Assembly: GCA_032718475.1 (NCBI GenBank)
Contig: JAUCBJ010009092.1
Coordinates: forward strand, 1 to 64,000
Reading direction: 5' to 3'
DNA length: 64,000 nucleotides
DNA from: Nemertoderma westbladi
Lineage: Eukaryota; Animalia; Xenacoelomorpha
Numbering within the stretch: position 1 is the stretch's first letter; the number at the start of each line of letters is the position of its first letter. The notes beneath the pieces were generated by a model, which saw only the letters and a list, made by a program, of their open reading frames with translations, searched no databases and had not been told where the DNA came from. The position numbers and the translations under genes were made by a program. Below are positions 13,328 to 39,500 of this stretch, in pieces.

Positions 13328-13400
13328 TTACTGGGAGCAAACCTTGGGATAGGAGTAGCACCCGCGCGCCCCTACCTTCGGGTAGCAGCTATTGAACAGG
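13328..13400 (+). mobile_element. Partial copy of the SINE body (one 36-bp unit plus flanks)
   Basis: ctgggagcaaaccttgggataggagtagc...cctaccttcgggtagcagctattgaa matches 24441-24503. Confidence 0.75.
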
Positions 13401-13939
13401 GAGATTGAGACAGGAAAGGGGGGAAACTTGATACAAATCCCGTCTAGCCTAGGCTAATTACTATTTCGTCTCAATATGTTAAATTTCCAATTTAGGGAAA
13501 GAAGCAGGTTACAGTACCATGTTATTCTTACCAAAACAATAAGCGAAAGTCATAGGAAAGGATATAGTTTTACTTTTGGGAGTAACCAGCTGTTATTTGC
13601 GTCGATTCTTCCCTAGAGAGAGATTAATTTTGATTCCTAGAACTTTTAACTTGACTTAACTTTTAAATTAAATATCATGCACAAAATATAAAGAAAGTCA
13701 ATATATATTTCAGATATGAAGTTTACATCCAACGGATACTGTAGCAGTCAATAATATAAGAAGAGTTTGCTCGCAAGTATTATTCTGGAGAGCGGCTGAA
13801 GACATTAATATGCAGCCACCACTAGCTGTTGACGCAGCAATTTCTAAATTGGGCTTTAAATTTTTATTGCAAGTGTGCGAATAAGGACTGTCATAACGTG
13901 TAAATAAATATATTATTATCAAAAATTAAACAGGATACG

Positions 13940-13992
13940 AATATGTTACAAAATGTGACGGGACGAGATCCCGTCACATTTTGTAACATATT
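13940..13992. repeat. Perfect inverted repeat, 24-bp arms, 5-nt loop
   Basis: aatatgttacaaaatgtgacggga-cgaga-tcccgtcacattttgtaacatatt. Confidence 0.95.
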
Positions 13993-14249
13993 TTTTTGAT
14001 ATTTATATGTTGGCGCGAGATCCCGACCGGTTGACTTTGTGGTGGTTGTTCCTACACGCACGCTGGCTGACTGATGGATGGACTGACTTGGCCCTAGGCG
14101 GTGAATAAAGAGTTTGTCTGTTGAACTTTGCTGTTGTTAATCGATTGACAATATACTGATGAATAGTTACCGGTAGTGGCAACAGCACAGCGTAGCAGCG
14201 GAAACTGTTTCACCTCTACTATAATGAGTAAAATTCCAACTGGTTGGAA

Positions 14250-14290
14250 TACACGTAACCGTTAATATAATATATTAACGGTTACGTGTA
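14250..14290. repeat. Perfect inverted repeat, 20-bp arms, 1-nt loop
   Basis: tacacgtaaccgttaatata-a-tatattaacggttacgtgta. Confidence 0.95.
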
Positions 14291-14295
14291 CGTGT

Positions 14296-14546
14296 AAGGT
14301 CTAAGGGAGGTAGATCCATGGGGTGGTAAGTAGCCAATGGGAGGCCAGCACATGGCAATGAGTGTATCGGTTGGAGGCCAATAACGTGTCAGCCTATTAG
14401 GCTGTAATTTCCCCTTTAAATATTAAAGGGGAAATTACAGCCTAATAGGCTGACACGTTATTGGCCTCCAACCGATACACTCATTGCCATGTGCTGGCCT
14501 CCCATTGGCTACTTACCACCCCATGGATCTACCTCCCTTAGACCTT
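14296..14546. repeat. Long palindrome, 124-bp arms, 3-nt loop
   Basis: 14296-14419 is the reverse complement of 14423-14546. The centre reads cccctttaa-ata-ttaaagggg. Confidence 0.95.
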
Positions 14547-15249
14547 TGGTTAGCCTCTACCCACTGAGGTGGATTGTTCGCCATGTTGGGTACCTTGATA
14601 GCCAACGTGGTAAATTGCCCCCCCCCCCCCCCCCCCCCCCCATTTTGTGGTTGGAATGCATAGCGGAATGGATCCGCTAACACAAAATTTGTAACTCCTA
14701 ACTGCAACCATAATACTTATTCCTTAAAATTTTAGTTTCTCCTGCTTAGTTTCTTCTTATTTATGAATGACAATTGTCTCAATAGGTAAATATACCCATG
14801 CAGGTTAACTTATTATTGTTGCTATGTAAAACATCTGTCGTTAAGATAAATAGTGTTCTAGAAAAAAATGCTCAATGCGGAGTATGTGAAATATAACATA
14901 ATTTCAAATGGCTTATACAAGTGAACACTTTCAGCAAAAAAAACTGCAGTCATACCCAATTTGAACGGTGGTCGCCACTGTCTACTTGACTATTAGGAGG
15001 AGGGAGATGAAACTAACTCTGTTTCAAATTTCATGCAATCTCATTTCGATTTGTGGGGAGGGGGGGCACGTACCTGAATTTTAGTATTATTGTTATTTTA
15101 ATTCGGTCAGTACCGACATAATGCACAGCTTAACATAATAAAATGTATAGCGTGGACAGAAATGTAGACGATAAATATAAAACAATTAAACATACTAAAA
15201 TTAATTTGATTCAACAAGGTGACTAGCTGGATGCCGAGATTCAATGTAA

Positions 15250-15760
15250 GAAGATCTCATTAGTTCGAAATTATATTGAAAGTTAATTTCATTAATGGAG
15301 TAACACTTTGCAAGGAAGACATAGTCTTCAGTATCTTTTAGAGATAGACTACCCTTGTTCAGCAGTGACACCAACCATTGAAGTTCAAAACAGTTGATTG
15401 AACACAGATGGCAGGTAGCATGACTTTCGTGCAGTTTCGTAGCAGCCACTGATACCAATGAAACGACCCCCACAGCTGGTTGACAGGAGATAACGTAAGA
15501 GTTATAGCATCCGTGGCTTTGGGCACATCTTTATTTATACGTTCGATCAGGTTGATACATTTAACAAAAGCTATTTGTGATACAGTGTTACAGCCCATGG
15601 CGAGTTTGAGTGTCGCATTACTAAGGTCGTTCCCACAGTTTAGGATGCTTCTCATTGACTTTCGTATCTGCCTGTCGAGTACACCAGTAGTCACAGATAA
15701 CGTAAGGGAGCTAAAGTAAAATTCAATACCATATTATGTAATGGCCTTCCAAAATATCGA
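15250..15760 (-). mobile_element. Possible old LINE RT C-terminal remnant
   Basis: Minus-strand YGIEF...LDRQIRKSMRSILNC...SNATL resembles the post-RT region of LINEs. The match is weak. Confidence 0.3.
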
Positions 15761-16131
15761 TACTGTTGAGAGGGAGTGTTGGCGCACTGTCCACGCCTCT
15801 TTGGTGAAAAATAGCTGAAAAATAGGTGAAAAATAGCTGAAGCAGATGAAATTCACTGTAAACAAACATGCAGCACTGACGATGACGACACTATATCCAT
15901 GGTGTATTGGCGTGAAGTTTTAGGAAGCCCTATTTTTAGACATAAAATTCGTCAACACTCTCTAAGTCTGTCATTAAGAAATCTGGTGAGACCAGCCAGG
16001 AACTAGCTTATATAGTTTAGAGATTTGATTATATTTCTACATACAGGCATTTTTATTGTATTTGAAGTAGTTATGTATTGCTTTACCCGGGGCGCCGGGT
16101 GTGTAATAATTAAATATTATTAATGTTGTAG

Positions 16132-16263
16132 TCACCTACAATATCAAAGACGTAATATTCCACTGGGCCGCTGAGAATGCAATCTCGAGAGAAGATATTG
16201 AACTTGCTCAGTTTACTATCGAAGGGATCAAGTACAAAGAATACACAGCAAAGTTCCCCGCAG
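16132..16263 (+). CDS. Cys-loop receptor (GABA-A/glycine family) exon: loop B to loop C of the ligand-binding domain
   Basis: gttgtag|TC...GCAG|gtaatt, 132 nt, phase 1-1. Encodes xTYNIKDVIFHWAAENAISREDIELAQFTIEGIKYKEYTAKFPAG, aligning with GABA-A beta YGYTTDDIEFYW...IELPQF...FATG. Confidence 0.9.
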
Positions 16264-17257: not shown

Positions 17258-17410
17258 GGATCTACAGTGGACTAGAGGCAGTGTTTATATTTAAGAGGAG
17301 TGTTGGATTCTACCTAATGCAGACATATGTTCCAGCCTTTTTGTGCGTCGTTATTTCCTGTGTTAGTTTCTGGATTAGAAGAGATGCAACGCCAGCCCGG
17401 GCAAGTTTAG
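17258..17410 (+). CDS. Cys-loop receptor exon: loop C, M1 and start of M2
   Basis: ttttaag|GG...TTAG|gtgagt, 153 nt, phase 1-1. Encodes GIYSGLEAVFIFKRSVGFYLMQTYVPAFLCVVISCVSFWIRRDATPARASLG, including the PAR anion-selectivity motif. Confidence 0.95.
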
Positions 17411-17524
17411 GTGAGTTCTGGAATAAAATTACACGTTGGATGAAGCTGTAATGCTGTAGTGTAGTAGTGTTATGGAAACTAGACTGTTAGGCGAGGAGGG
17501 AAGGAACAAGTATTTTTGGTGTTG

Positions 17525-17735
17525 TCGTGTTTCGGCAACTGATAGTAGCGTTAGAGCCGCGTTTCGGCAACTCGTAGTCGCGTTTCGGCAACATGGTAAC
17601 AAGGTTGTGTTTTTGCAACTGAGTGATGCATTTTCGAACTCATAGTTTCATTTCGGCAACTCATAGTTGCATTTTGGCAACTGTTAACAGGATGCGCTTA
17701 GGCAAACTGATAGATGCGTTTCGGCAACTTGTAAA
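17525..17735 (+). repeat. Cluster of degenerate CGTTTCGGCAACT motifs
   Basis: About nine spaced copies. A reverse-complement cluster (AGTTGCCGAAACG) lies at ~24020-24160. Confidence 0.65.
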
Positions 17736-18284
17736 CAAAGGCCAACTGGATACTGTATAGAGCCTACAGTATAGAGATAGGTGGAATCTCAACGTCACCA
17801 TCGCATTGTATTAACATAGGGCAGAGCAATTCAGTATTATTTATTACCTTTGCCTCATTATGTTTCCCATTATTCATTTTCATTCTACAATATTTTACCC
17901 GCGCCTACTCCAACACTACTTCGAGTTATATAGAAACTGATGATATTAATTCCATATATTGTCTACATATTATTCGATATATTATAAGTCTATTAATTCA
18001 ATCTGATATTATAATTCAATCTGATATTAATTCACACAGTACTGTTTATCTATTCCCCTTTTCAATTTTGGTTTTTCAACTCGCCTTCGACTCAGTAGAT
18101 AGAATTTAGAATCCGACATATCTCAGGATCAGTTTGCGCCCAAAATGGAGAGCGTACAATGATTAGTTCTAATTTTAGGTTAGTTTGAGTAACACCTGTC
18201 CAGCGTCACGGACGGAACGTCACGGGTGGAAAAAAATTCTACATTTATATTATATGATTATATGATATATATATGATTTATTTT

Positions 18285-19159
18285 ACAGGAGCTAATAAAC
18301 CAACAGGTTGATGCCATCAATGATGCTGACGACAGCAGGCAATCATCCCAGGCATGGAAATCGATCAATCTGCTTACTGGTCGGAAAAGCCAACCAACCA
18401 CCAAGGTTAAGGCTGAATCACCAGCCGATCGCCTCAATGGTTGGAAAGCCCACTTTGAAAAGCTCCTCAATAATGACAGGGTATTGCCTGATAACTTTAT
18501 AGAAGTAAAAGTGTCTGAGTCTGTACTCCCAGATATTCTCATTGGCGATATCTCCTTTGCAGAAGTGAAGGCTGCTGCAAAGAGCATTAAGACCAATCGG
18601 GGCAGTGGAGTAGATGGTGTTCCCCCTGAGGTCTTTAAAATACCTGAGTGTTTAAAGCTCATCTATCCCATCATAGTAGACATGTACAGAACAACAAGAG
18701 GCCTACGAGAAATGAAAACAAATAAGTTGGTGCCAGTTCCCAATAAGGGCAACCTAACACTCTATGGTTCTTTTCGGGGATCTCATTAATCTCGATTGCT
18801 GCAATGCTATACAATAGAATTCTATTAAATCGCATCAGGGACCCATTGAGAGACTGCTCCGTGGAAATCAGAATGGGTTCCGTAAAGGTCGTGGGACCAT
18901 GGAGCCCATTTTGGCACTTAGAAGGATAATTTAAGAGTTATCAAAAAAGAAGGACAGGCATCTGGCTGTTATATTTGTTGACTTCTTCAAGGACTTTGAT
19001 TCAGTCTCTCGCTCACGTATGTTCAGCATACTTTCATTATATGGGATTCCTGATGAAATTATTCCAGCAATCAGATCAGTATACGATGGTTCGACAACAT
19101 TTGTGTCTACTGTTGATGGTGACACAGAACCATTTTAAGTGTTATGGGGCATCCTCCGG
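18285..19159 (+). mobile_element. RTE LINE copy A, 5' part (pre-RT to RT motif), split by insertion
   Basis: Reads QELINQQ...GVDGVPPE...PVPNKGNL...NQNGFRKGR...FVDF.K.FDSV and breaks at GGGCATCCTCCGG (19147-19159). Confidence 0.9.
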
Positions 19160-22100
19160 ATACTAGGATGGCATGCTGCATTGCAGCTGCATTTTTAAGA
19201 ATGCTGTGCCAGCTTATCGACAAAATTGCACCGCCACAATGCCCTATCACCCATGACATTTGCTAGATCATCCGCATCTTCAAGGCCAGTGTCCTTTAAG
19301 ATGCGTCTCAAGAAAGTCATGGGCTGTCCACCATGCTTATTCACTCCATGAGGCTGCCAAAGTACAAGATTATGCACTGGTTGGTCCTCACGGCGAAAGC
19401 AATGTCCTGCAAAGCGGAGGCGATTTTGTTCTAGTGTTCAATTCCATCAATAGAATCACAGCTCTGTGGAATATTCGAATTTTCTGGCCTCGATGTGCTC
19501 GATTCTTTTTTAATACCTACCGAGGTTACTCAATTCTGGTTCTCCATGGGCCTTCCGGAACTCTCCATTTACTCAGCAGAGAAGGGTTCACACAGGGAGA
19601 CCCTCTGTCAATGCTGGGATATGCTGTCGCTGTCTACCCCCTTATCCTAGAACTGAAATCTGACGAATATAATCAGGTATGGTTTGCAGATGATTCAGAG
19701 AACGTGGGCGAATTGATAAAGCTTCATTCGCATCATAAAGCGTGGACCATCCTATGGGTATTTCCCAGAGCCTGATAAAGGCACCCTTATCGTTGATAGT
19801 GGTGATGAGACAATTGCACGCCATTTATTCAGTGGACTCAGCATCAATGTGGACGGGAGTGGTGTGGTAAATGGTACCAGGACTCTGGGTGGATTCGTTG
19901 CTGATAACAGTCTCCTAAATCAGTATATATCTTCAAAGGTTTACAAGTGGGAGGCTGACATAGAACGCCTTGCAGAGATTGCCGTCAACCAACCACAAGC
20001 CGTCTACTCAGCCATAACACGCTCACTGCAATTTCAATGGGGATTTCTGCGAGTGATGCCATCTAGCACAAAGGAACTGTATACACAACACAAATAGAGA
20101 ACGCCTTGCATGACAAGTTCCTTCCAGCGATTATGGGTGGTTCAGTTTCCAATGTGGAACGGAAGCTGCTTTCCTTACCAGTAGGCAAAGGTGGCTTGGG
20201 AATCCCTGATCCGACTCAGACAGCAACTACCTCACTAGAGACTTCTCGATCCGCAATGCAAGTGGCATGTGAAGCAATCAAAAGTCGATCAGAAATTAAC
20301 TTTTATGAACATGGACGCTCCGTAAAGGAGGCACGGCAATCCCACTCCAAGCAGGCATGTGAACACGCCAACAACATCCTTGATTCGGTGCAGAACGAAT
20401 TACCCCCATCTCGTCGACGAGCAGTTGGAAGGGCCTCATCATCGACTTCGAGTTGGCTGACAGCACTTCCGCTCAAGTTACAAAACTTCGATCTGGCAGC
20501 CAATGAGTTTAGGGATGGTCTCAGTCTTCGCTATGGATGTCCTCTAGTTGGTGCCCCCACCAACTGTGGTGGCTGCGGTTCAGCATTCATGCTCTTGCAC
20601 GCCTTGGATTGCAAGAAGGGTGGTTTAGTAACATTGCGTCACAACGAGGTGCGAGATGCCCAGGGTGAGCTCTTTAGCCTGGTCTTCTCGGAGGCATCAG
20701 TAGAGAGAGAGCCCATCATCCGCTAGGCAGATGATCAACACAACATGGAAGGACTGCGAGGTGACTTATCTGTACGGGGATTCTGGCAGCAGCAGAGGAG
20801 GGCATTGTTTGATATTCGAGTTGTTGACTCTGACGCCCCCTCTTATGCTACCAGATCAGTACAGTAGCTATTGAGCAGCGCGGAAAGAGAGAAGAAAAAT
20901 AAATATCTGGAAGCTTGCGCACAACGTCAGGCTGACTTCTCCCCTTTGGATACCACAGTAGATGGCGTTCTGGGTACAGAGTACTCCATGGTCCTCCACC
21001 GCCTGGCTGAGTTCCTCAGTACCAAGTGGGATAAACCCTACTCCCAGGTAATGTGCTGGATCCGAACCAGACTGTCGTTTGCGACGCTGAGGGCCACCTG
21101 TGCCTGTTTTAGATCATCCAGGTCATGTTGGCGGTGCTCAGGTGTAATGTATGGAGCTGCACCACCTCGATTTACACTCGAGAACTAGACACTTCCTGCA
21201 GCTGGTATTGAATAATTTGAATTTTCAGGTTGTATAGTTTGCTGGGTTATCAACACTATTTTACTATAGCTATATATGTTTGTCTTCTGTCTTTCCTCCA
21301 CTTTTTGGCCATATTTCATTAATATTCTGTGCAGGTTATTGTTATTGTTATTTACCATGGAAATAATAACAAATTTTGTGTTTGTGAGTATAGTAGTTTT
21401 GTTCTAGTGTCAAGCTTGGGGGAACCAATGAGACACCTCCAATGTTATATAGTGTCTGGTTGGAGATGTGTGCATTGTACTTGACACAATGAACCCGGCG
21501 TAGCATTCTTGTGAATGTGCCATCCAGAGATTTGGTGTCCTCAGCAGTTAGAGCCCAGCATGGACTCCCATAGAGGAGTACTGGAACTACTGCTGCTCTA
21601 AATAATCGGACCTTAAGTTTCTGATTAATTCTCGTTGACTTCCAAATCCTGGAAAGCCTATTCAAGGCTGCCCATGCCTTTCCCTTACGTATTCGAAGGT
21701 CCTCACCTGACTTCCGGATCCATGATCCCAGGTAACAGAAGTCATCCACATGCTCAAGCATACCATCTGTTGAGCTTATGCTCATCCGATCAGAGACTTA
21801 CTGAGGACTTTCAAAATTAACTGTCAAAATTTTGGTCTTTCTGGAGTTAATAAAAAGACCAACACTAGAAACAGCATGTTCTAATGAGCTGAGGAGCCGT
21901 TGGGCCCCCTCTAGTGATTCTGAGAGTACTCCTAAGTCATCAGCAAAGTCTAGATCAGTTAGGTACTTGTCAGGATTTCCTCGACTTCTGGAGCCAGTAG
22001 GTGGAGATATCATCACCCCATCATCATTATGATGATCTAAGGACATGCGTAGAACATAGTCAACTACAATTATGAACAAGAATGGTGCAAGTGTGTCTCC

Positions 22101-22880
22101 CTGGAGGACGCCCCATAACACTTCAAATGGTTCTGTGTCACTGTCAACAGTAGACACAAATATTGTCGAACCATCCTATACTGATCTGATTGCTGCAATA
22201 CGATGCGATTTAATAGAATTCTATTGTATAGCTTTGCAGCAATCGAGATCAATGAGATTCCCCGAAAAGAACCATAGAGTGTTAGGTTGCCTTTCTTGGG
22301 AACTGGCACCAACTTATTTGTTTTCATTTCTTGTGGGACTCTTGTTGTTCGGTACATGTCTACTATGATGGGATAGATGAGCTTTAAACACTCAGGTATT
22401 TTAAAGACCTCAGGGGGAACACCATCTACTCCACTGGCACGATTGGTCTTAGTGCTCTTTGCAGCAGCCTTCACTTCTGCAAAGGAGATATCGCCAATGG
22501 GAATATCTGGGAGTACAGACTCAGACACTTTTACTTCTATAAAGTTATCAGGCAATACCCTGTCATTATTGTGGAGCTTTTCGAAGTGGGCCTTCCAACC
22601 ATTGAGGCGATCGGCTGGTGATTCAGCCTTAACCTTGGTGGTTGGTTGGCTTTTTCGACCAACAAGCAAGTTGATCAATCTCCATGCCTGGGATGATTGC
22701 CTGCTGTCGTCAGCATCATTGATGGCATCAACCTGTTGGTTTATTAGCTCCTGTAGATTAACAGAGTACTGCCTGTTCAGGGACCTAGATGCAGCCTTAA
22801 CTGCATTCTTGGCCGCTGTAGTCTGTTTGAGTCGGGACTCTTTCTGTGCCTTGTAGAGGTCATTTCGGCACTTCTGAATT
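19160..22880 (-). mobile_element. RTE LINE copy B inserted antisense into copy A, itself split by a CRE element
   Basis: The 3' end lies at 19160-19437 and the rest at 21397-22880 (QGDTLAPFLF, DLDFADD, internal deletion near 22200). Flanked by the 13-bp duplication GGGCATCCTCCGG (19147-19159 and 22881-22893). Confidence 0.9.
19438..21396 (+). mobile_element. 5'-truncated CRE-clade non-LTR retrotransposon (RT, CCHC finger, restriction-like endonuclease), degenerate
   Basis: Motifs QGDPLSML, WFADD, LPV.KGGLGI, C..CG...HALDCKKGG...RHNEVRD, RGDL.VRGFW, FDIRV.D.DA.SY and EREKK.KY. Flanked by the 14-bp duplication TTTTGTTCTAGTGT (19424-19437 and 21397-21410). Confidence 0.88.
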
Positions 22881-23853
22881 GGGCATCCTCCGGGGAGACA
22901 CACTTGCACCATTCATGTTCATAATTGTGGTTGACTATGTTCTACGCATGTCCTTAGATCATCATAATAATGATGGGGTGATGATAACTCCACCTACTGG
23001 CTCCAGAAGTCGAGGAAATCCTGCCAAGTACCTAACTGATCTACACTTTGCTGATGACTTAGAAGTACTCTCAGAATTAATAGAGGGAGCCCAACGGCTC
23101 CTCAGCTCATTAGAACATGCTGCTTCTAGTGTTGGTCTTTTTATTAACTCCAGAAAGACCAAAATTTTGACAGTTGACTTTGAAAGTCCTCAGCAAGTCT
23201 CTGATCGGATGAGCACAAGCTCAAAGGATTGTATGCTTGAGCACGTGGACGACTTCTGTTACCTGTGATCATGGATCCGGAAGTCAGGTGAGGACCTTCG
23301 AATACGTAAGGGAAAGGCATGGGCAGCCTTGAATAGGCTTTCCAGGATTTGGAAGTCACCGAGAATTAATCGGAAACTTAAGGTCTGATTATTTAGAGCA
23401 GCAGTAGTTCCAGTACTCCTCTGCTGCTCTCTAACTGCTGAGGACACCAAATCTCTGGATGGCACATTCACAAGAATGCTACGCCGGGTTCATTGTGTCA
23501 AGTACAATGCACACATCTCCAATCAGACACTATATAACATTGGAGGTATCTCATTGGTTCCCCCAAGCTTGACACTAGAACAAAATCGCCTCCGCTTTGC
23601 AGGACATTGCTTTCGCCGCGAGGACCAGCCAGTACATAATCTTGTACTTTGGCAGCCTCATGGAGTGAATAAGCATGGTGGACAGCCCATGACTTTCTTG
23701 AGACGCATCTTAAAGGACACTCGCATTGAAGATGCGGATGATCTAGCAAATGTCATGGGTGATAGGGAGTTGTGGCGGCGCAATTTTGTTGACAAGCCGG
23801 CACAGCACTCTTAAAAATGCAGCTGCAATGCAGCATGCCGATCCTAGTAGTAG
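22881..23853 (+). mobile_element. RTE LINE copy A, 3' part with (TAG)n tail
   Basis: Resumes exactly at GILRGDTLAP, continues through FADD and RLRFAGHC, and ends in tagtagtag. Confidence 0.9.
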
Positions 23854-24318
23854 TGTCCAGCGTCACGGACGGAACGTCACGGGTGGAAAAAAATTATACA
23901 TTTATCAATCTGACCACAAAATCATATTTTATCACTGCCATATGTGCAAACCGGCAATGTACACATATAAATGACCAATTAACAACTCTGCCGTCAATAA
24001 CTATAGGGTTTGTGACCTATTTGCCGAAACGCAACTTCAGTTAGCCGAAATGCAACTACGAGTTGCCGAAACACAACCATAGCAGTTGGTGAAACGTAAT
24101 TGTTTAGTTGCCGAAACGCGAATTTCAGTTGCCTAAACGTGACAGTTGCCGAAACGCGACGTAACCGTATTTTTAGAGCGCACAGATATATATATTTATA
24201 CTTAGATATAAGACACAACTATTCAGTATTGTATACAACTGGTTTCCACACCGTACAGTTATATTTTGGTTTTTATTAATTATTATTCTATATAGATACC
24301 TATATATATATCAATAAC

Positions 24319-24553
24319 GGCGGGGTAGCTCATTTGGTTGAGCGCCGGGCCTGCAATCTATTGGTTGTAGGTTCAGCCCCGCCAGGGTCCACTCAGCCTT
24401 TCATCCACTGGGGTCGATAAAATGAGTACCAGTTAATTAACTGGGAGCAAATCTTGGGATAGGAGTAGCGCCCACCCCTACCCTCGGGTAGCAGCTATCG
24501 AAAGAGGAGCCTTCGGGTCGCCTCCGGCTTCGGCCGACTGTTTGCTTTGCTTG
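24319..24553 (+). mobile_element. tRNA-derived SINE, compact (unexpanded) copy
   Basis: Pol III-type head GGCGGGGTAGCTCATTTGGTTGAGCG...GGTTCAGCCCC, central ACTCAGCCTTTCATCC...AAAATGAGTACCAG, a single 36-bp unit, UUCG hairpins and a tttgc tail. Confidence 0.9.
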
Positions 24554-24615
24554 ATATATCAATGAGATAAATTCGTAGTCATAAATCGAAAGGATTTCTG
24601 CGCTAACTCCATCCA

Positions 24616-27600
24616 TTATTACAGGAATAGCCACTGTTCTAACAATTGTTACAGGAATAACCATAGTTCTAACAATTGTTACAGGAATAGCCACTGTTCT
24701 GATAATTGTAACAGGAATAACCACTGTTCTAAAAATTGTTACAGGAATAGCCACTGTTCTAACAATTGTTACAGGAATAACCACTGTTCTAACAATTGTT
24801 ACAGGAAGAGCCATAGTTACAGGAATAACCACTGTTCTGACAATTGTAACAGGAATAACCACAGTGCAAACAATTATTACTCCACTGTATTACTACACTG
24901 TTCTAACAATTGTTACAGGAATGGCCACTGTTCTAACAATTGTTACAGGAATAACCACTGTTCTAACAAATGTTACAGGAGTAACCACTGTTCTAACAAC
25001 TGATACAGAAATACCCATAGTTCTAACAATTGTTAGAGGAATAACTACTGTTCTAACAATTGTTACAGGAATAGCCATAGTTACAGGAATAACCACTGTT
25101 CTGACAATTGTAACAGGAATAACCACAGTGCAAACAATTATTACAGGAATAACCACTGTTCTAACAATTATTACAGGGATAACCACTGTTCTAACAATTG
25201 TAACATGAATAACCACAATGCAAACAATTATTACATGAATACCCACTGTTCTAACAATTATTACAGGGATAACCACTGTTCTAACAATTGTTACAGGAAT
25301 AGCCACAGTGCAAACCATTATTACAGGAATAACCACTGTTCTAACAATTGTTACAGGAATAGCCATAGTAACAAGAATAACCACAGTGCAAATAATTATT
25401 ACATGAATACCCACTGTTCTAACAATTATTACAGGGATAACCACTGTTCTAACAATTGTAACATGAATAACCACAATGCAAACAATTATTACATGAATAC
25501 CCACTGTTCTAACAATTATTACAGGGATAACCACTGTTCTAACAATTGTAACATGAATAACCACAATGCAAACAATTATTACATGAATACCCACTGTTCT
25601 AACAATTATTACAGGGATAACCACTGTTCTAACAATTGTTACAGGAATAACCATAGTTCTAACAATTGTTACAGGATTAACCACTGTTCTAACAATTGTT
25701 ACAGGAATAGCCACTGTTCTTACAATTGTTACAGGAATAACCACTGTTCTAACAGTTGTTACAGGAATAGCCACTGTTCTTACATTTGTTACAGGAATAA
25801 CCACTGTTCTAACAATTGTTACAGGAATAGCCATAGTTACAGGAATAACCACTGTTCTGACAATTGTTACATGAATAGCCACAGTGCAATCAATTATTAC
25901 AGGAATAACCACTGTTCTAACAATTGTTACAGGAATAGCCATAGTTACAGGAATAACCACAGTGCAAACAAATGTTACAGGAATAACCACAGTGTAAACA
26001 ATTGTTACAGGAATAACCACTGTTCTAACAATTGTTACAGGAATAATCACTGTTCTAACAATTATTACAGGAATAACCACAGTGCAAACAATTGTTACAG
26101 GAATAACCACTGTTCTAACAAATGTTACAGGAGTAGCCATAGTTACAGGAATAACCACTGTTCTGACAATTGTTACAGGAATAGCCACAGTGCAAACCAT
26201 TATTACAGGAATAACCACTGTTCTAACAATTGTTACAGGAATAGCCATAGTAACAAGAATAACCACAGTGCAAATAATTATTACATGAATACCCACTGTT
26301 CTAACAATTATTACAGGGATAACCACTGTTCTAACAATTGTAACATGAATAACCACAATGCAAACAATTATTACATGAATACCCACTGTTCTAACAATTA
26401 TTACAGGGATAACCACTGTTCTAACAATTGTAACATGAATAACCACAATGCAAACAATTATTACATGAATACCCACTGTTCTAACAATTATTACAGGGAT
26501 AACCACTGTTCTAACAATTGTTACAGGAATAACCATAGTTCTAACAATTGTTACAGGATTAACCACTGTTCTAACAATTGTTACAGGAATAGCCACTGTT
26601 CTTCCAATTGTTACAGGAATAACCACTGTTCTAACAGTTGTTACAGGAATAGCCGCTGTTCTTACATTTGTTACAGGAATAACCACTGTTCTAACAATTG
26701 TTACAGGAATAGCCATAGTTACAGGAATAACCACTGTTCTGACAATTGTTACAGGAATAGCCACAGTGCAATCAATTATTACAGGAATAACCACTGTTCT
26801 AACAATTGTTACAGGAATAGCCATAGTTACAGGAATAACCACAGTGCAAACAAATGTTACAGGAATAACCACAGTGTAAACAATTGTTACAGGAATAACC
26901 ACTGTTCTAACAATTATTACAGGAATAATCACTGTTCTAACAATTATTACAGGAATAACCACAGTGCAAACAATTGTTACAGGAATAACCACTGTTCTAA
27001 CAAATGTTACAGGAGTAGCTATAGTTACATGAATAACCACAGTGCAAACAATTGTTACAGGAATAACCACAGTGTAAACAATTGTTACAGGAATAGCCAT
27101 AGTTCCAGGAATAACCACTGTTCTAACAATTGTTAGAGGAATAACCACTGTTCTAACAATTGTTACAGGTATAGCCATAGTTACAGGAATAACCACAGTG
27201 CAAACAGATGTTACAGGAATAACCACAGTGTAAACAATTGTTACAGGAATAATCACTGTTCTAACAATTATTACAGGAATAACCACAGTGCAAACAATTG
27301 TTACAGGAATAACCACTGTTCTAACAAATGTTACAGGAGTAACCACTGTTCTAACAACTGATACAGAAATACCCATAGTTCTAACAATTGTTACAGGAAT
27401 AACCACAGTGCAAACAATTGTTACAGGAATAGCAATAGTTCCAGGAATAACCACTGTTCTAACAATTGTTACAGGAATAACCGCGTGCAAACAATTGTTA
27501 CAGGAATAACCACTGTCGCTGAGCAAACAATTGTTACAGGAATAACCATAGTTTTAACAATTGTTACAGGAATAACCACTGTTCTAACAATTGTTACAGG

Positions 27601-28750
27601 AATAGCCATAGTTACATGAATAAACACAGTGCAAACAATTGTTACAGGAATAACCACAGTGCAAACAATTGTTACAGGAATATCCATAGTTTCAGGAATA
27701 ACCATAGTTCTATCAAGTGTTACAGGAATAGCCATAGTTACAGCGTTACAGGAATAACCACAGTGCAAACAATTGTTACAGGAATAACCACAGTGCAAAC
27801 AATTGTTACAGGAATAACCACAGTGCAAACAATTATTACAGGAATAACCACTGTTCTAACAATTGTTACAGGAAGAGCCATAGTTACAGGAATAACCACT
27901 GTTCTAACAATTGTTACAGGAAGAGAGAGCCATAGTTACAGGAATAAACACTGTTCCAACAATTGTTACAAGAATAACCACTGTTCTAACAATTATTACG
28001 GGAATAACCACTGTGCTACTGCTAACAATTGTTACAGGAATAACCATAGTTCTAACAATTTTTACAGTCACAACCACTGTTTTAACAATTGTTACAGGAA
28101 TAACCATAGTAATAACAATTATTACATTAATAACCACTGTTCTAACAATTGCTACAGGAATAGCGACAGTTCTAACAAAAGTTACAGGAATAACCACTCT
28201 GCTAACCATTGTTACAGGAATAACCATAGTTCTAACCATTGTTACAAGAATAACCATAGTTCTAACCATTGTTACAGGAATAACCATAGTTCTAACAATT
28301 GTTAAAGGAAAAACCGTAGTTCTAACCATTGTTACAGTAATAACCATAGTTCTAACCATTGTTACAAGAATAACCATAGTTCTAACCATTGTTACAGGAA
28401 TAACCACTGTTCTAACAATTGTTAAAGGAATAACCGTAGTTCTAACCATTGTTACAGGAATAACTATAGTTCTAACTATTGTTACAGGAATAACCATAGT
28501 TCTAACCATTGTTACAGGAATAACCATAGTTCTAACCATTGTTAAAGGAATAACCATAGTTCTAACCATTTTTAAAGGAATAACCGTAGTTACAGGAATA
28601 ACCATAGTTCTAACTATTGTTACAGGAATAACCACTGTGCTAACTCTTGTTACAGGAATAACCATAGTTACAGGAATAACCATAGCTCTAACTATTGTAC
28701 AGGAATAACCATAGTTACAGGAATAACTATAGTCCTAACTCTTGTTACAG
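24616..28750 (+). repeat. 30-bp minisatellite (with 18-bp variants) made of the splice acceptor plus the first codons of the M2 exon, roughly 140-150 units
   Basis: The unit TTACAG|GAATAACCACTGTTCTAACAATTG encodes (T)GITTVLTIV. The array runs seamlessly into the real exon at 28751. Confidence 0.96.
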
Positions 28751-28950
28751 GAATAACCACTGTGCTAACCATTGTTACGCTAATCTCTGGAACGAGTGGT
28801 TCTCTACCTCGTATCTCCTACATTAAAGCCATCGAGATCTACTTGTTTGTATGCCTCATATACGTGTTTGGGGCTTTGTTGGAGTTTGCCATTGTGTGTT
28901 ACTACAGTAAACCTCGATACCAAAGATATTTTGAAGAAAAAAGACGAACT
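28751..28950 (+). CDS. Cys-loop receptor exon: M2, M2-M3 loop and M3
   Basis: cttgttacag|GA...ACT|gtaagt, 200 nt, phase 1-0. Encodes (G)ITTVLTIVTLISGTSGSLPRISYIKAIEIYLFVCLIYVFGALLEFAIVCYYSKPRYQRYFEEKRRT. Confidence 0.95.
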
Positions 28951-29683
28951 GTAAGTAAAGGATGTTAATATATGTTTTAATATAATACATTGAAACGATA
29001 ATAAACAGAGTCCTCTTTATTTACATACACAGATAGTGTTTAATTTATATATTATATATAATGTATATACACCATAACCATAAGCCCCCCCCCCCCCCCC
29101 CTACAATTTTTAATTGGACATTAAATAAATTACTTATGATCAAATATTTAATTTCAGGAATCATACTCTTATTACCTTTTAAGGCCCCAGTAGCGCTACT
29201 TCAATAATTTTTTGCAAAAAAAATTTTTTAATTTCATCTAGAGCAGATTTTTATCAAGATTCTAAATTTGAAAACCGTTTAGCAAGATCTGTCCTACTTC
29301 TCGAGATATTGCTGTCTGTCCGTTTTACTGTTGGTTTGTCCGTCAGTATGTCTGCCTTTCAATGAAAAACATATTTTCTGTCTAAAAAATTCCCTGTATG
29401 GGTTTTCGTGGTCGGTGACTTCATTTCTGATGCCATTAATCAAATCTCGTCGGTTCTGTCTGTATGCCTGTCAGTCTGTCTGTCAAAATCCGACTCTATT
29501 CAATGCACCTCGTCAGGCCGGTAGCTAGAAGTTTAAAAGGGCGGTTCGTTCGATCCAACGAACCCCCCCCTTGTCTACGGGTATGCTCGTTATTCCTTTT
29601 TTTCGATCACCAACTCTATTTCAATATAACCTAATACAGTGCCCAATACACGGAATGTTTAGTTTATATTTGTTTTTACGCAG

Positions 29684-29746
29684 AAAAAAAAGAAAAGAAC
29701 AATGACCGGTAACCCGTATGATGATGATAATTCAGATTGCCCAGCG
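29684..29746 (+). CDS. Cys-loop receptor exon: intracellular M3-M4 loop (small symmetric exon)
   Basis: tgtttttacgcag|AAA...GCG|gtgagt, 63 nt, phase 0-0. Encodes KKKKRTMTGNPYDDDNSDCPA. Supported by splice sites and frame only. Confidence 0.72.
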
Positions 29747-30514: not shown

Positions 30515-32540
30515 TTATGGCCCCCCATAAGTGCAGTTAAAGCTTCGGCGGTCTTCTCGCTTATGGCCCCCCATAAGTGCAGTTAAAGCCTGGGCGGTCT
30601 TCTCGCTTATGGCCCCCCATAAGTGCAGTTAAAGCCTGGGCGGTCTTCTCGCTTATGGCCCCCCATAAGTGCAGTTAAAGCCTGGGCGGTCTTCTCGCTT
30701 ATGGCCCCCCATAAGTGCAGTTAAAGCCTCGGCGGTCTTCTCGCTTATGGCCCCCCATAAGTGCAGTTAAAGCCTGGGCGGTCTTCTCGCTTATGCCCCC
30801 CCCCCCCCCCTCCCCCCCATAAGTGCAGTTAAAGCCTCGGCGGTCTTCTCGCTTATGGCCCCCCATAAGTGCAGTTAAAGCCTCGGCGGTCTTCTCGCTT
30901 ATGGCCCCCCATAAGTGCAGTTAAAGCCTCGGCGGTCTTCTCGCTTATGGCCCCCCATAAGTGCAGTTAAAGCCTCGGCGGTCTTCTCGCTTATGGCCCC
31001 CCATAAGTGCAGTTAAAGCCTGGGCGGTCTTCTCGCTTATGCCCCCCCCCCCCCCCCTCCCCCCCATAAGTGCAGTTAAAGCCTCGGCGGTCTTCTCGCT
31101 TATGGCCCCCCATAAGTGCAGTTAAAGCCTCGGCGGTCTTCTCGCTTATGGCCCCCCATAAGTGCAGTTAAAGCCTCGGCGGTCTTCTCGCTTATGGCCC
31201 CCCATAAGTGCAGTTAAAGCCACGGCGGTCTTCTCGCTTATGGCCCCCCATAAGTGCAGTTAAAGCCTGGGCGGTCTTCTCGCTTATGGCCCCCCATAAG
31301 TGCAGTTAAAGCCTCGTCGGTCTTCTCGCTTATGGCCCCCCATAAGTGCAGTTAAAGCCTGGGCGGTCTTCTCGCTTATGCCCCCCCCCCATAAGTGCAG
31401 TTAAAGCCTCGGCGGTCTTCTCGCTTATGGTCCCCCATAAGTGCAGTTAAAGCCTCGGCGGTCTTCTCGCTTATGGCCCCCCATAAGTGCAGTTAAAGCC
31501 TGGGCGGTCTTCTCGCTTATGGCCCCCCATAAGTGCAGTTAAAGCCTCGGCGGTCTTCTCGCTTATGGCCCCCCATAAGTGCAGTTAAAGCCTGGGCGGT
31601 CTTCTCGCTTATGGCCCCCCATAAGTGCAGTTAAAGCCTGGGCGGTCTTCTCGCTTATGGCCCCCCATAAGTGCAGTTAAAGTCTCGTCGGTCTTCTCGC
31701 TTATGGCCCCCCATAAGTGCAGTTAAAGCCTCGGCGGTCTTCTCGCTTATGGCCCCCAATAAGTGCAGTTAAAGCCTGGGCGGTCTTCTCGCTTATGGCC
31801 CCCCATAAGTGCAGTTAAAGCCTCGGCGGTCTTCTCGTTTATGGCCCCCCATAAGTGCAGTTAAAGCCTGGGCGGTCTTCTCGCTTATGGCCCCCCATAA
31901 GTGCAGTTAAAGCCTCGGCGGTCTTCTCGCTTATGGCCCCCCATAAGTGCAGTTAAAGCCTCGGCGGTCTTCTCGCTTATGGCCCCCCATAAGTGCAGTT
32001 AAAGTCTCGTCGGTCTTCTCGCTTATGGCCCCCCATAAGTGCAGTTAAAGCCTCGGCGGTCTTCTCGCTTATGGCCCCCCATAAGTGCAGTTAAAGCCTC
32101 GGCGGTCTTCTCGCTTATGGCCCCCCATAAGTGCAGTTAAAGCCTCGGCGGTCTTCTCGCTTATGGCCCCCCATAAGTGCAGTTAAAGTCTCGTCGGTCT
32201 TCTCGCTTATGGCCCCCCATAAGTGCAGTTAAAGCCTCGGCGGTCTTCTCGTTTATGGCCCCCCATAAGTGCAGTTAAAGCCTGGGCGGTCTTCTCGCTT
32301 ATGGCCCCCCATAAGTGCAGTTAAAGTCTCGTCGGTCTTCTCGCTTATGGCCCCCCATAAGTGCAGTTAAAGCCTCGGCGGTCTTCTCGCTTATGGCCCC
32401 CAATAAGTGCAGTTAAAGCCTGGGCGGTCTTCTTGCTTATGGCCCCCCATAAGTGCAGTTAAAGCCTCGGCGGTCTTCTCGCTTATGCCCCCCCCCCCCC
32501 CCCCCCATAAGTGCAGTTAAAGCCTGGGCAGTCTTCTCTC
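30515..32540. repeat. 46-bp minisatellite TTATGGCCCCCCATAAGTGCAGTTAAAGCCTCGGCGGTCTTCTCGC, ~44 copies, intronic
   Basis: Directly visible. Contains a CTTATGG/CCATAAG hairpin, and some units have expanded poly-C. Confidence 0.96.
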
Positions 32541-32912: not shown

Positions 32913-33287
32913 AGTAACACAGGATTACTGGGTCAGCACCTGTACCCGTACCCACAGTATCCAATGCAGTCCAACCTCCAGCAGAGGTCGTCTGCCGCCT
33001 CTCGCATGGCAACCCACGACAGCGAGGTGTTCCAGCGACCAATCACAATCGTGGACAGGAGTCCGCAACACCAAACTTTTGTCGCGCGTCTCAATACATC
33101 GAGAACTTCCACACGTAACCGAGGCAATAAACACAATAAATGTTCATTTATAATATCAGAACCGAGTAGAGTAGACGTTATATCAAGAATTGTTTTTCCT
33201 TTAACATTTATTCTATTTAATATCGGTTATTGGATTGGCTACGTTAAGAATGCTGGTGCAGTTTTGAGCGAAATGTTAGACGCCTAA
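32913..33287 (+). CDS. Cys-loop receptor terminal exon (loop, M4, stop)
   Basis: tatttgcag|AGT, phase 0. Ends EPSRVDVISRIVFPLTFILFNIGYWIGYV...*, the classic D..SR..FP..F..FN..YW M4 motif. Confidence 0.93.
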   Translation, partial: SNTGLLGQHLYPYPQYPMQSNLQQRSSAASRMATHDSEVFQRPITIVDRSPQHQTFVARLNTSRTSTRNRGNKHNKCSFIISEPSRVDVISRIVFPLTFILFNIGYWIGYVKNAGAVLSEMLDA

Positions 33288-34091: not shown

Positions 34092-34431
34092 CATACTTTG
34101 GTCAGTAATCCATCCTCCCATACTTTGGTCAGTAATCCATCCTTCCATACTTTGGTCAGTAATCCATCCTCCCATACTTTGGTCAGTAATCCATCCTCCC
34201 ATACTTTGGTCAGTAATCCATCCTCCCATACTTTGGTCAGTAATCCATCCTCCCTTACTTTGGTCAGTAATCCATCCTCCCATACTTTGGTCAGTAATCC
34301 ATCCTCCCATACTTTGGTCAGTAATCCATCCTCCCATACTTTGGTCAGTAATCCATCCTCCCATACTTTGGTCAGTAATCCATCCTCCCATACTTTGGTC
34401 AGTAATCCATCCTCCCATACTTTGGTCAGTA
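34092..34431. repeat. 27-bp minisatellite CATACTTTGGTCAGTAATCCATCCTCC, ~12.5 copies
   Basis: Directly visible and contiguous with the adjacent decayed LINE. Confidence 0.95.
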
Positions 34432-34835
34432 AAGCCATGAGCTGCCAACCATTATAATTTAATTCCATGAAGCAGCCAAAACACAAGATCGTGCGCAGGC
34501 TGGTCCTCAGCCGAAAGCAATGTCCTGCGAAGCGGAAGCGGCTCTGTTCATGTGTCATGCTTGGGGGACTATTTAGTCTCCTCCCATGCTGAATAGAGTC
34601 TGGTTGGAGAGGTGTGCCTGCGCATTGTACTTTGCAAAGTAAACCCGGCGTAGCATTCTTATGTAGTTGCACCCAGAGACTTTCTGTTCTCAGCAGTTTG
34701 AGCCAGCCTGGACTCTGTAGGCACTGAATGTTACTGATTCTGCTGCAGCTTTAAATAAACGAACCTTAATTTTCCGATGTATTATATTTGAAGATGTTCA
34801 CCTGACTCCCGGATCCACGTTCCCAAGTAACATAA
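34432..34835 (-). mobile_element. Decayed RTE LINE fragment
   Basis: Minus strand reads YLGTWIR...EQSRFRFAGHCFR, collinear with the RT C-terminal region of the younger copies. Confidence 0.8.
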
Positions 34836-36502: not shown

Positions 36503-39500
36503 TCGTGGGCCTCTCTGTATTGGAATATATTCAGTGGGCCTCTCTGTATTGGAATCTATTCAGTGGGCCTCTCTGTATTTGGAATCTCTTCAGTGGGCCT
36601 CTCTGTATTGGAATCTCTTCAATGGGCCTCTCTGTATTGGAATCTATTCAGTGGGCCTCTCTGTATTGGAATCTCTTCAGTGGACCTATCTGTATTGGAA
36701 TCTCTTCAGTGGGCCTCTCTGTATTGGAATCTCTTCAGTGGGCCTCTCTGTATTGGAATCTCTTCAGTGGGCCTCTCTGTATTGGAATCTATTCAGTGGG
36801 CCTCTCTGTATTGGAATCTATTCAGTGGGCCTCTCTGTATTGGAATCTATTCAGAGGGCCTCTCTGTATTGGAATCTCTTCAGAGGGCCTCTCTGTATTG
36901 GAATCTCTTCAGTGGGCCTCTCTGTATTGGAATCTATTCAGAGGGCCTCTCTGTATTGGAATCTCTTCAGAGGGCCTCTCTGTATTGGAATCTCTTCAGT
37001 GGGCCTCTCTGTATTGGAATCTATTCAGAGGGCCTCTCTGTATTGGAATCTCTTCAGAGGGCCTCTCTGTATTGGAATCTCTTCAGTGGGCCTCTCTGTA
37101 TTGCAATCTCTTCAGTGGGCCTCTCTGTATTGGAATCTCTTCAGTGGGCCTCTCTGTATTGGAATCTCTTCAGTGGGCCTCTCTGTATTGGAATCTATTC
37201 AGTGGGCCTCTCTGTATTGGAATCTATTCAGAGGGCCTCTCTGTATTGGAATCTCTTCAGTGGGCCTCTCTGTATTGGAATCTATTCAGTGGGCCTCTCT
37301 GTATTGGAATCTCTTCAGTGGGCCTCTCTGTATTGGAATCTCTTCAGTGGGCCTCTCTGTATTGGAATCTCTTCAGTGGGCCCCTCTGTATTGGAATCTC
37401 TTCAGTGGGCCTCTCTGTATTGGAATCTATTCAGTGGGCCTCTCTGTATTGGAATCTATTCAGAGGGCCTCTCTGTATTGGAATCTCTTCAGTGGGCCTC
37501 TCTGTATTGGAATCTATTCAGTGGGCCTCTCTGTATTTGGAATCTCTTCAGTGGGCCTCTCTGTATTGGAATCTCTTCAGTGGGCCTCTCTGTATTGGAA
37601 TCTCTTCAGTGGGCCTCTCTGTATTGGAATCTCTTCAGTGGGCCTCTCTGTATTGGAATCTCTTCAGTGGGCCTCTCTGTATTGGAATCTCTTCAGTGGG
37701 CCTCTCTGTATTGGAATCTATTCAGTGGGCCTCTCTGTATTGGAATCTATTCAGTGGGCCTCTCTGTATTGGAATCTCTTCAGTGGGCCTCTCTGTATTG
37801 GAATCTCTTCAGTGGGCCTCTCTGTATTGGAATCTCTTCAGTGGGCCTCTCTGTATTGGAATCTATTCAGAGGGCCTCTCTGTATTGGAATCTCTTCAGT
37901 GGGCCTCTCTGTATTGGAATCTCTTCAGTGGGCCTCTCTGTATTGGAATCTCTTCAGTGGGCCTCTCTGTATTGGAATCTCTTCAGTGGGCCTCTCTGTA
38001 TTGGAATCTCTTCAGTGGGCCTCTCTGTATTGGAATCTATTCAGTGGGCCTCTCTGTATTGGAATCTATTTAGTGGGCCTCTCTGTATTGGAATCTATTC
38101 AGTGGGCCTCTCTGTATTGGAATCTATTTAGTGGGCCTCTCTGTATTGGAATCTCTTCAGTGGGCCTCTCTGTATTGGAATCTATTCAGTGGGCCTCTCT
38201 GTATTGGAATCTATTTAGTGGGCCTCTCTGTATTGGAATCTCTTCAGTGGGCCTCTCTGTATTGGAATCTCTTCAGTGGGCCTCTCTGTATTGGAATCTC
38301 TTCAGTGGGCCTCTCTGTATTGGAATCTCTTCAGTGGGCCTCTCTGTATTGGAATCTCTTCAGTGGGCCTCTCTGTATTGGAATCTCTTCAGTGGGCCTC
38401 TCTGTATTGGAATCTATTCAGTGGGCCTCTCTGTATTGGAATCTATTCAGTGGGCCTCTCTGTATTGGAATCTATTCAGAGGGCCTCTCTGTATTGGAAT
38501 CTCTTCAGTGGGCCTCTCTGTATTGGAATCTATTCAGTGGGCCTCTCTGTATTGGAATCTCTTCAGTGGGCCTCTCTGTATTGGAATCTCTTCAGTGGGC
38601 CTCTCTGTATTGGAATCTCTTCAGTGGGCCTCTCTGTATTTGGAATCTCTTCAGTGGGCCTCTCTGTATTGGAATCTCTTCAGTGGGCCTCTCTGTATTG
38701 GAATCTATTCAGTGGGCCTCTCTGTATTGGAATCTCTTCAGTGGGCCTCTCTGTATTGGAATCTATTCAGTGGGCCTCTCTGTATTGGAATCTCTTCAGT
38801 GGGCCTCTCTGTATTGGAATCTATTCAGTGGGCCTCTCTGTATTGGAATCTATTCAGTGGGCCTCTCTGTATTTGGAATCTCTTCAGTGGGCCTCTCTGT
38901 ATTGGAATCTCTTCAGTGGGCCTCTCTGTATTGGAATCTCTTCAGTGGGCCTCTCTGTATTGGAATCTCTTCAGTGGGCCTCTCTGTATTGGAATCTATT
39001 CAGTGGGCCTCTCTGTATTGGAATCTCTTCAGTGGGCCTCTCTGTATTGGAATCTCTTCAGTGGGCCTCTCTGTATTGGAATCTATTCAGTGGGCCTCTC
39101 TGTATTTGGAATCTCTTCAGTGGGCCTCTCTGTATTTGGAATCTCTTCAGTGGGCCTCTCTGTATTGGAATCTCTTCAGTGGGCCTCTCTGTATTGGAAT
39201 CTATTCAGTGGGCCTCTCTGTATTGGAATCTCTTCAGTGGGCCTCTCTGTATTAGAATCTCTTCAGTGGGCCTCTCTGTATTGGAATCTCTTCAGTGGGC
39301 CTCTCTGTATTGGAATCTATTCAGTGGGCCTCTCTGTATTGGAATCTCTTCAGTGGGCCTCTCTGTATTGGAATCTATTCAGTGGGCCTCTCTGTATTGG
39401 AATCTCTTCAGTGGGCCTCTCTGTATTGCAATCTCTTCAGTGGGCCTCTCTGTATTGGAATCTCTTCAGTGGTCCTCTCTGTATTGGAATCTCTTCAGTG

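What the first reader, a model, noticed from the sequence alone, without database searches (positions are those of the whole stretch)
24601..28790. The splice acceptor and pore-lining M2 codons of an ion-channel gene are amplified ~140-fold into a 4.1-kb array of decoy acceptors
Seen: the 30-bp unit is exactly the intron end (TTACAG) plus the first codons of the M2 exon (G-I-T-T-V-L-T-I-V). The intron splits M2 at LG|ITTVLT, the conserved GABA-A beta intron position (established). The first copy (AG 24623-24624) follows unique intron sequence with a CTAAC branch-point consensus at 24603-24607, so it looks like the ancestral acceptor. Splicing there reads in frame through M2-like repeats into TGA at 25206-25208. 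Most full-length units recreate a CTAAC...TTACAG|G signal, because the exon codons CTA ACC ATT GTT ACG mimic the intron end 30 nt upstream. Inference: the working acceptor has slid 4.1 kb downstream, exon-derived DNA has become intron, and the spliceosome must bypass over 100 near-identical AGs. This is either an extreme test of 3' splice-site choice or a copy-number-dependent rheostat on channel expression.
Basis: partly seen in the sequence, partly recalled or inferred. Interest (0 to 1): 0.9.

Follow-up and report, generated by a model that had tools for sequence, protein, structure and literature searches.

The report
Giant splice-acceptor "mirage" in ion-channel gene
A 30-base piece covering the end of an intron and the start of a pore-lining exon of an animal GABA/glycine-receptor-like channel gene is repeated 145 times in a row, and the spliced transcripts found use only the last, exon-adjacent copy, so this is an unusually large but likely harmless example of a repeat type already described in lancelets and some human genes.

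Summary
The array is real and the gene is alive. 24615-28780 holds 145 units ahead of the M2 exon; 122 keep an AG. DNA runs from two samples hold the units, and one contig bridges array and exon. Run X4 is not on record as RNA but its contigs are spliced. They join the upstream exon (donor 17410) to the last acceptor (28751), through a 30-mer found only in that copy; none fits an upstream unit. 120 of 123 acceptors would give a premature stop. The last acceptor is neither the strongest nor the most accessible, so position next to the downstream donor likely decides. This is a 'mirage' minisatellite (amphioxus; human CBS, F7, ABCA7), and the scan has noted this kind 8 times before in other genomes. 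48% of this window is tandem arrays. What stands out is the copy number and an in-frame isoform that skips the M1 exon. No evidence for a rheostat. New member of a known kind.

The parts
16132..16263 (+). Exon Z (end of the ligand-binding domain)
   Evidence: tblastn and HMM hits; 3' end matches the loose end of X4 record 23; start inferred from AG and frame
17258..17410 (+). Exon A, 153 nt (pre-M1, M1, start of M2); skipped in frame in one X4 contig
   Evidence: Pfam PF02932 1-29; X4 records 25 and 23
17411..28750 (+). 11,340-nt GT-AG intron holding retroelement fragments, a dispersed repeat and the array
   Evidence: skipped by X4 record 25
24316..24563 (+). Dispersed SINE-like repeat ending about 50 nt before the array ('SINE' is recalled, not tested)
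   Evidence: 88-90% identical to the copy around the 36-bp array; third copy at 13317-13396
24603..24624 (+). First (putative ancestral) acceptor with CTAAC at canonical distance; no use seen
   Evidence: would fit the laid stretch (3 mismatches in 30) but no X4 contig
24615..28750 (+). Mirage array: 145 units (mostly 30 and 18 nt) of intron end plus first M2 codons; 122 upstream AG acceptors
25284..27020 (+). Recent 882-nt block duplication inside the array (4 mismatches in 854)
28674..28702 (+). 29-nt unit (no. 143) that takes the 21 nearest otherwise-open decoys out of frame
   Evidence: a 29-nt gap in X3 record 16 fits it (inferred from coordinates)
28721..28750 (+). Last unit, which supplies the working acceptor
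   Evidence: X4 records 23, 24 and 25; 30-mer 28749-28778 occurs once in the window
28751..28950 (+). Exon B, 200 nt (M2, M3), followed by a GTAAGT donor
   Evidence: Pfam PF02932 30-96; X4 record 24
29684..29746 (+). Exon C, 63 nt (M3-M4 loop)
   Evidence: loose end of X4 record 24 equals 29684-29713; end inferred from GT and frame
32913..33287 (+). Last coding exon D with M4 and stop
   Evidence: Pfam PF02932 152-233; open frame Z-A-B-C-D; start inferred from AG and frame

Best explanation
This is a 145-copy minisatellite spanning an intron-exon border (a 'mirage') in an expressed GABA/glycine-receptor-like channel gene; the spliced contigs found use only the last, exon-adjacent acceptor, and the array is likely a tolerated by-product of repeat instability. 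Origin (inferred): a 9-of-10 match between the intron end and exon codons 30 nt downstream seeded a slip or unequal crossover that copied the AG plus the first 28 exon bases. Further unequal exchange grew the array; the 882-nt block duplication and an allele lacking one 18-nt unit show continuing turnover. Site choice (inferred): exon definition. The strong donor at 28951 pairs with the nearest good 3' splice site and defines a 200-nt exon. Upstream AGs would define exons of 230 to 4326 nt, and only 5 of 123 give 300 nt or less. Rare errors would mostly be removed, because 120 of 123 acceptors give a premature stop upstream of later junctions; nonsense-mediated decay in this animal is assumed, not shown. 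Exon-derived DNA has indeed become intron, but the protein is unchanged.
For: Spliced contigs join exon A, and separately exon Z, to 28751 with 0 mismatches, through a 30-mer that occurs once (nearest other copies: 1 at 1 mismatch, 14 at 2, 31 at 3). All 3 of X4's 3 laid contigs fit the last copy, while the DNA runs laid 14-25 contigs each, all but one of those shown being array units. Frame open through Z-A-B-C-D to the natural stop. Microhomology. Variation at all codon positions and internal stops, so no sign of coding constraint on the units. Eight tandem arrays fill 30,648 of 64,000 bases; one is a 36-bp piece amplified 90-fold inside a dispersed repeat whose single-unit copy sits at 24316-24563. 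The last acceptor is not uniquely strong (among the top 9 of 123 for pyrimidines) or accessible (rank 52-69 of 123). Same outcome in amphioxus mirages (PMC3087553, PMC3902484) and CBS 844ins68 (PMC2630376).
Against: One spliced run only, held as contigs, which drop rare variants. Only 62 of 122 upstream acceptors would have fitted the laid stretch at 88%. X4 comes from a third sample whose genome was not seen, so that it carries the array is inferred. Decay of stop-containing forms would hide mis-splicing. An exon-A-skipped isoform exists (contig depth 20.6 against 77; depth is a poor measure), so splicing around this intron is not perfectly clean. A frameshifted unit lies among the last three, which would happen by chance about 8% of the time.
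Confidence: 0.8

Rival explanations
1. Slightly harmful or regulatory length variant: the array slows or disturbs removal of the 11-kb intron, so array length sets the share of exon-A-skipped (M1-less) or decay-bound transcripts, as ABCA7 VNTR length does for a neighbouring exon.
For: An in-frame isoform without exon A is present in X4 (record 23). The array edge differs between alleles. ABCA7 precedent (PMC5954066, passages). 120 of 123 acceptors lead to stops.
Against: Both isoforms use the same last acceptor. The skipped exon lies 7.2 kb upstream of the array, whereas in ABCA7 the skipped exon lies just downstream. No upstream-acceptor product seen. No allele-length data linked to RNA.
Confidence: 0.12
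2. Decoys are used often but their products are invisible: the spliceosome picks upstream AGs at appreciable rates and decay removes the products, lowering output at a fixed cost.
For: 107 decoy-plus-real sites read TTACAG; 8 upstream sites equal or beat the last one in pyrimidine count; nearly all give stops; contigs drop rare forms.
Against: No upstream junction among 3 of 3 X4 contigs, including the two in-frame, stop-free decoys at 28703 and 28721, whose products would escape decay and would have been laid. Published mirages report no aberrant mRNA (PMC3902484, passage).
Confidence: 0.1
3. RNA structure hides the decoys: a 12-nt palindrome in many units pairs them up and leaves only the last acceptor open.
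For: A mid-array 241-nt window folds with z = -3.5 and the 3' edge with z = +0.1. 34 of 123 acceptors carry the palindrome and are less accessible.
Against: The last acceptor ranks only 52-69 of 123 in predicted accessibility; 89 of 123 lack the full palindrome; the unit is not exceptional against shuffled-unit arrays (6 of 60 fold as well).
Confidence: 0.04
4. Assembly artefact or dead gene.
Against: Diverged units in DNA runs of two samples, a bridging contig, and spliced contigs across three introns with an open frame.
Confidence: 0.02

Closest known systems
Amphioxus 'mirage' minisatellites (Adh3, troponin C, globins BflGb6 and BflGb9, PGBD5); PMC3087553 and PMC3902484, passages read; the Adh3 paper itself not seen
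   Same: Tandem copies of an intron-exon boundary; many but not all keep the splice signal; unit length inside the reported 10-160 bp; length differs between haplotypes; normal splicing at the authentic copy.
   Different: 145 copies against 2-7 in the passages read (Adh3 copy numbers not seen); the unit holds only 2-6 intron bases, so the working pyrimidine tract is exon-derived; an ion-channel pore exon.
Human CBS 844ins68 (PMC2630376 and PMC1334203, passages read)
   Same: Duplication of an intron/exon junction; the downstream, exon-proximal site is strongly favoured and the upstream exon copy is spliced out. PMC2630376 words the sites as 'donor'; its reference list titles them 3' splice sites.
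   Different: One extra copy of 68 bp, polymorphic; here 145.
Human F7 intron 7 37-bp VNTR (PMC1557585, abstract and Discussion read)
   Same: Minisatellite spanning a splice boundary; only the exon-adjacent site is used although the pseudo-sites are functional.
   Different: Donor side, 5-9 copies.
Human ABCA7 intron 18 25-bp VNTR (PMC5954066, passages read)
   Same: Splice-site-bearing VNTR of 12-427 units; in-frame skipping of a neighbouring exon.
   Different: Donor side; a length effect is shown there and untested here; there the skipped exon lies just downstream of the repeat.
Anion-type Cys-loop receptors (glycine receptor alpha, GABA-A, invertebrate GABA receptors)
   Same: M1-M4 region (PF02932); best solved relatives are glycine receptor alpha for exon B and a GABA receptor beta chain (9she) for exon A.
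   Different: No close relative (65% identity at most); subunit class not assignable from these exons.

Membership tests
Mirage minisatellite | Head-to-tail units spanning an intron-exon boundary of the host gene | tested here: met
Mirage minisatellite | Many but not all units keep the splice dinucleotide | tested here: met
   122 of 145 upstream unit starts follow an AG
Mirage minisatellite | mRNA is spliced at the authentic, exon-adjacent copy | tested here: met
   3 of 3 X4 contigs; contigs cannot exclude rare forms
Mirage minisatellite | Length differs between haplotypes | tested here: met
   X3 record 16 has a 29-nt gap against the window; a model lacking one 18-nt unit reproduces start, gap and aligned length; the inserted letters were not shown
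Mirage minisatellite | Concerted turnover inside the cluster, with distinct edges | tested here: met
   882-nt block with 4 mismatches in 854; exon-like C at unit position 20 in 10 of the last 16 full units against 2 of the other 101
Mirage minisatellite | Somatic length instability (reported for Adh3) | not testable with these tools
   needs single-molecule reads
Copy-number splicing rheostat (ABCA7 type) | Isoform ratio or expression varies with repeat length | not testable with these tools
   no paired DNA and RNA
Copy-number splicing rheostat (ABCA7 type) | Detectable use of repeat-borne splice sites | tested here: inconclusive
   none among X4's 3 contigs; 62 of 122 upstream acceptors were detectable; contigs drop rare forms
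GABA-A beta subunit | Closest relatives are beta subunits | tested here: not met
   exon B: glycine receptor alpha E 5e-17 to 1e-14, vertebrate beta E about 2e-11; exon A: all classes within 47-42 bits
GABA-A beta subunit | Phase-1 intron inside the G codon of LG-ITT | tested here: inconclusive
   2 of 14 distant loci (L001, L012) have an AG-ended non-coding stretch at this exact place, 11 read through (some may be cDNA-like), 1 is spurious; the vertebrate position is recalled, not checked
Cys-loop receptor, anion type | M1-M4 domain with PAR motif before M2 (motif recalled) | tested here: met
Cys-loop receptor, anion type | Cys-loop and N-terminal ligand-binding exons | tested here: inconclusive
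   only exon Z found; nothing else in 96 ORFs by Pfam, by tblastn or by HMM

The most novel reading that the evidence does not exclude
Array length tunes channel output: longer alleles delay removal of the intron and raise the in-frame, M1-less isoform seen in X4, while the 29-nt unit near the end has been kept by selection so that 21 nearby decoys yield decay-bound messages instead of subunits with extra pore-helix repeats. The locus would then be a natural, heritable dial on an inhibitory receptor and the largest acceptor ladder for testing 3' splice-site choice.
Probability: 0.1. Interest if true: 0.7.

Novelty: new member of a known kind. Interest (0 to 1): 0.33.

Why it matters
It shows that an animal spliceosome can bypass 122 near-identical AGs over 4.1 kb and settle on an acceptor built almost wholly from former M2 codons. 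A simple 5'-to-3' first-AG scan does not predict that; exon definition does. It is a good natural test substrate, larger than the acceptor-side cases in the passages I read (2-7 units) and in this scan's earlier notes (8-35 units, unchecked). It is not a new system. Practical point: such arrays give long false M2-like ORFs that can mislead gene annotation.

Tried and rejected
No whole genome is held, so other copies of the unit and true orthologues could not be searched. Word-indexed homologue search with exon B: 0 of 96 candidates scored. No RNA holder listed for the last exon; X4 was recognised as spliced only by laying it. Only the 3' edge of the array was laid against runs; the 5' edge and the intron after exon B were not, so total length in other individuals stays open. 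X1 and X2 show no exon cover and X4 none upstream of 28748: holes alone prove nothing. Summed contig depth in X3 (peak 1586 against 14.6 on the exon) fits many copies but is not a copy number. RNA masking rejected. Superior strength of the last acceptor rejected as sufficient. Coding use of the array (long M2-like ORF) rejected: internal stops, frameshifts, no codon-position bias. Upstream ligand-binding exons not found. No array at the M2 border in 14 of 14 distant metagenome loci, but these are 39-62% identical and not orthologues. Atlas look-up of the neighbouring HPPD gave nothing used. Two paper searches for a known M1-exon-skipped GABA receptor isoform returned 0 papers; that does not show it is unpublished. 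Three papers were not held. Supplements were not opened; the mirage alignments of PMC3087553 are in them and may bear on the copy-number comparison.

Full report
Observation. The array is in the sequence as described. Splitting it at each acceptor-like anchor gives 145 units ahead of the M2 exon: 117 of 30 nt, 20 of 18 nt and eight others. 123 of 146 unit starts, counting the exon itself, follow an AG; 107 follow TTACAG. The 117 full units comprise 58 distinct sequences, 2.7 mismatches from consensus on average, and an 882-nt block is duplicated with 4 mismatches in 854. The first copy has CTAAC with the branch A at -19, and splicing there runs 194 codons to TGA at 25206. The CTAAC inside units sits at -13 from its own AG in 72 of 123 acceptors, closer than the usual 18-40 nt (range recalled); only 16 of 123 have one in that range.

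Host gene. Exons A (17258-17410) and B (28751-28950) cover consecutive Pfam PF02932 positions 1-29 and 30-96. Exon Z (16132-16263), exon C (29684-29746) and exon D (32913-33287) complete an open frame through M4 to a natural stop, with four GT-AG introns. The exons before Z were not found in the window. Exon B is closest to glycine receptor alpha chains among solved structures, exon A scores almost equally against all classes, and no library protein exceeds 65% identity. I therefore call it a GABA/glycine-receptor-like anion channel, not a beta subunit. An intron at the same phase-1 position appears in 2 of 14 distant metagenome loci; none of the 14 has an array there.

Is the array real? Five runs hold the last exon; none is on record as RNA. 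I laid four of the six listed runs on 28690-29000. X1 and X3 (sample S1) and X2 (sample S2) gave 25, 15 and 14 contigs; those shown are short array units with 1-4 mismatches, except X3 record 16, which runs from the array into the exon and beyond. It has one other letter (synonymous T>C at 28908) and a 29-nt gap. A model allele that lacks the 18-nt unit 144 reproduces its start, gap and 332-letter aligned length. This suggests that the 29-nt unit is real and that the edge is polymorphic; the inserted letters were not shown. Either sample may be the source of the window, so likely one is independent.

Which acceptor is used? X4 (sample S3, another study) gave three contigs, all 99% or more alike. 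Record 25 carries the end of exon A and then 28749-28778 with no mismatch. Record 23 carries the end of exon Z and then the same place, so exon A is skipped in frame. Record 24 covers 28749-28950 and continues into exon C. All three loose ends equal the window's exon ends. The 30-mer 28749-28778 occurs once; one other copy differs by 1 base, 14 by 2 and 31 by 3. X4 is thus spliced RNA by behaviour (inferred), and the acceptor seen is the last. No X4 contig fitted an upstream unit. Limits: contigs drop rare forms; only 62 of 122 upstream acceptors, the first among them, would have fitted at 88%; and S3's own genome was not seen. The age and diversity of the array, and its presence in S1 and S2, make it likely that S3 has it too. 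The depths (77, 20.6, 35.4) do not add up across the junction, so the skipped share is only roughly a minority.

How the site is chosen (inferred). The last acceptor is among the top 9 of 123 for pyrimidines but three decoys beat it. Two 241-nt folds suggested masking (z = -3.5 mid-array, +0.1 at the edge), and 34 of 123 acceptors carry a 12-nt palindrome. However, the last acceptor ranks 52-69 of 123 in predicted accessibility, so I reject masking as the cause. What is unique is position: it lies 200 nt from a GTAAGT donor, and only 5 of 123 acceptors give an exon of 300 nt or less. Exon definition (established knowledge) predicts this choice. 120 of 123 acceptors give a premature stop; only 28703, 28721 and 28751 stay open. 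Without the 29-nt unit, 21 more would share the frame with no stop. A frameshift among the last three units has about 8% chance, which is too weak to claim selection.

Origin (inferred). The intron end and the exon 30 nt downstream match at 9 of 10 bases, a natural seed for slippage. The unit needs only the AG from the intron; the other 28 bases can be exon-derived. The sequence before the first AG resembles the exon start more than background (0.14% of 4192 windows; 5.5% without the microhomology), so it may be a decayed unit and the 'ancestral' label is unproven. Amplification is routine here: eight arrays fill 48% of the window, and one is a 36-bp segment multiplied 90-fold inside a dispersed repeat whose plain copy lies at 24316-24563.

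Comparison. I first found the human cases: F7 intron 7, where only the exon-adjacent one of 5-9 identical donors is used (PMC1557585; abstract and Discussion); CBS 844ins68, where the downstream copy of a duplicated intron/exon junction is used (PMC2630376 and PMC1334203; passages); and ABCA7, where a 12-427-unit VNTR raises skipping of the next exon (PMC5954066; passages). The scan's notes list eight earlier findings of this kind in other genomes and led me to the amphioxus 'mirage' class, which I checked in passages of PMC3087553 and PMC3902484: tandem copies of intron-exon boundaries, 10-160-bp units, length instability, no disturbance of splicing. Five of six features were met here; somatic instability could not be tested. 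Those notes are unchecked and are not support. My ten searches showed no acceptor-side case of this size, but the library is incomplete.

Verdict. Observation confirmed; interpretation partly supported. A very large mirage in a live channel gene, spliced at its last copy, probably near-neutral (0.8). The M1-less isoform and the frameshift guard leave a 0.1 chance of a length-dependent dial. New member of a known kind; interest 0.33.

Noticed in passing
window 16263 joined to 28751: In-frame isoform that skips the 153-nt exon A (pre-M1, M1, start of M2), X4 record 23, contig depth 20.6 against 77 for the full form. Two paper searches for a known counterpart found nothing.
   Followed up: partly
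window 1830-5081: 36-bp unit repeated 90 times inside a dispersed SINE-like repeat; the single-unit copy is at 24316-24563 and a third at 13317-13396. ARAGORN finds no tRNA gene in the window.
   Followed up: partly
window 36505-54568, 30515-32530, 34092-34432, 60551-63087: Further long arrays: 29 bp x 622 (18 kb), 46 bp x 42 (inside the C-D intron of the same gene), 27 bp x 13, 22 bp x 115; eight arrays fill 48% of the window.
   Followed up: no
window 57626-58765: Single-ORF (apparently intronless) 4-hydroxyphenylpyruvate dioxygenase-like gene.
   Followed up: no
window 5100-16131: No Cys-loop or other N-terminal exon found upstream of exon Z; they may lie more than 16 kb away or be too short or diverged.
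   Followed up: partly
window 24615-28750: A 12-nt palindrome in 34 of 123 acceptors, rare in the last 550 nt (2 of 18); it could favour hairpin-driven expansion, but does not explain site choice.
   Followed up: yes
window 27163-27174: Unit 89 reads AG directly followed by GT, the shape of a recursive splice site, with a weak donor.
   Followed up: no
window 18261-23811: Several reverse-transcriptase-like fragments on both strands in the A-B intron, with near copies at 145-762 (LINE label recalled).
   Followed up: no
window 28908: Synonymous T>C in X3's contig; X4 has the window's letter.
   Followed up: yes
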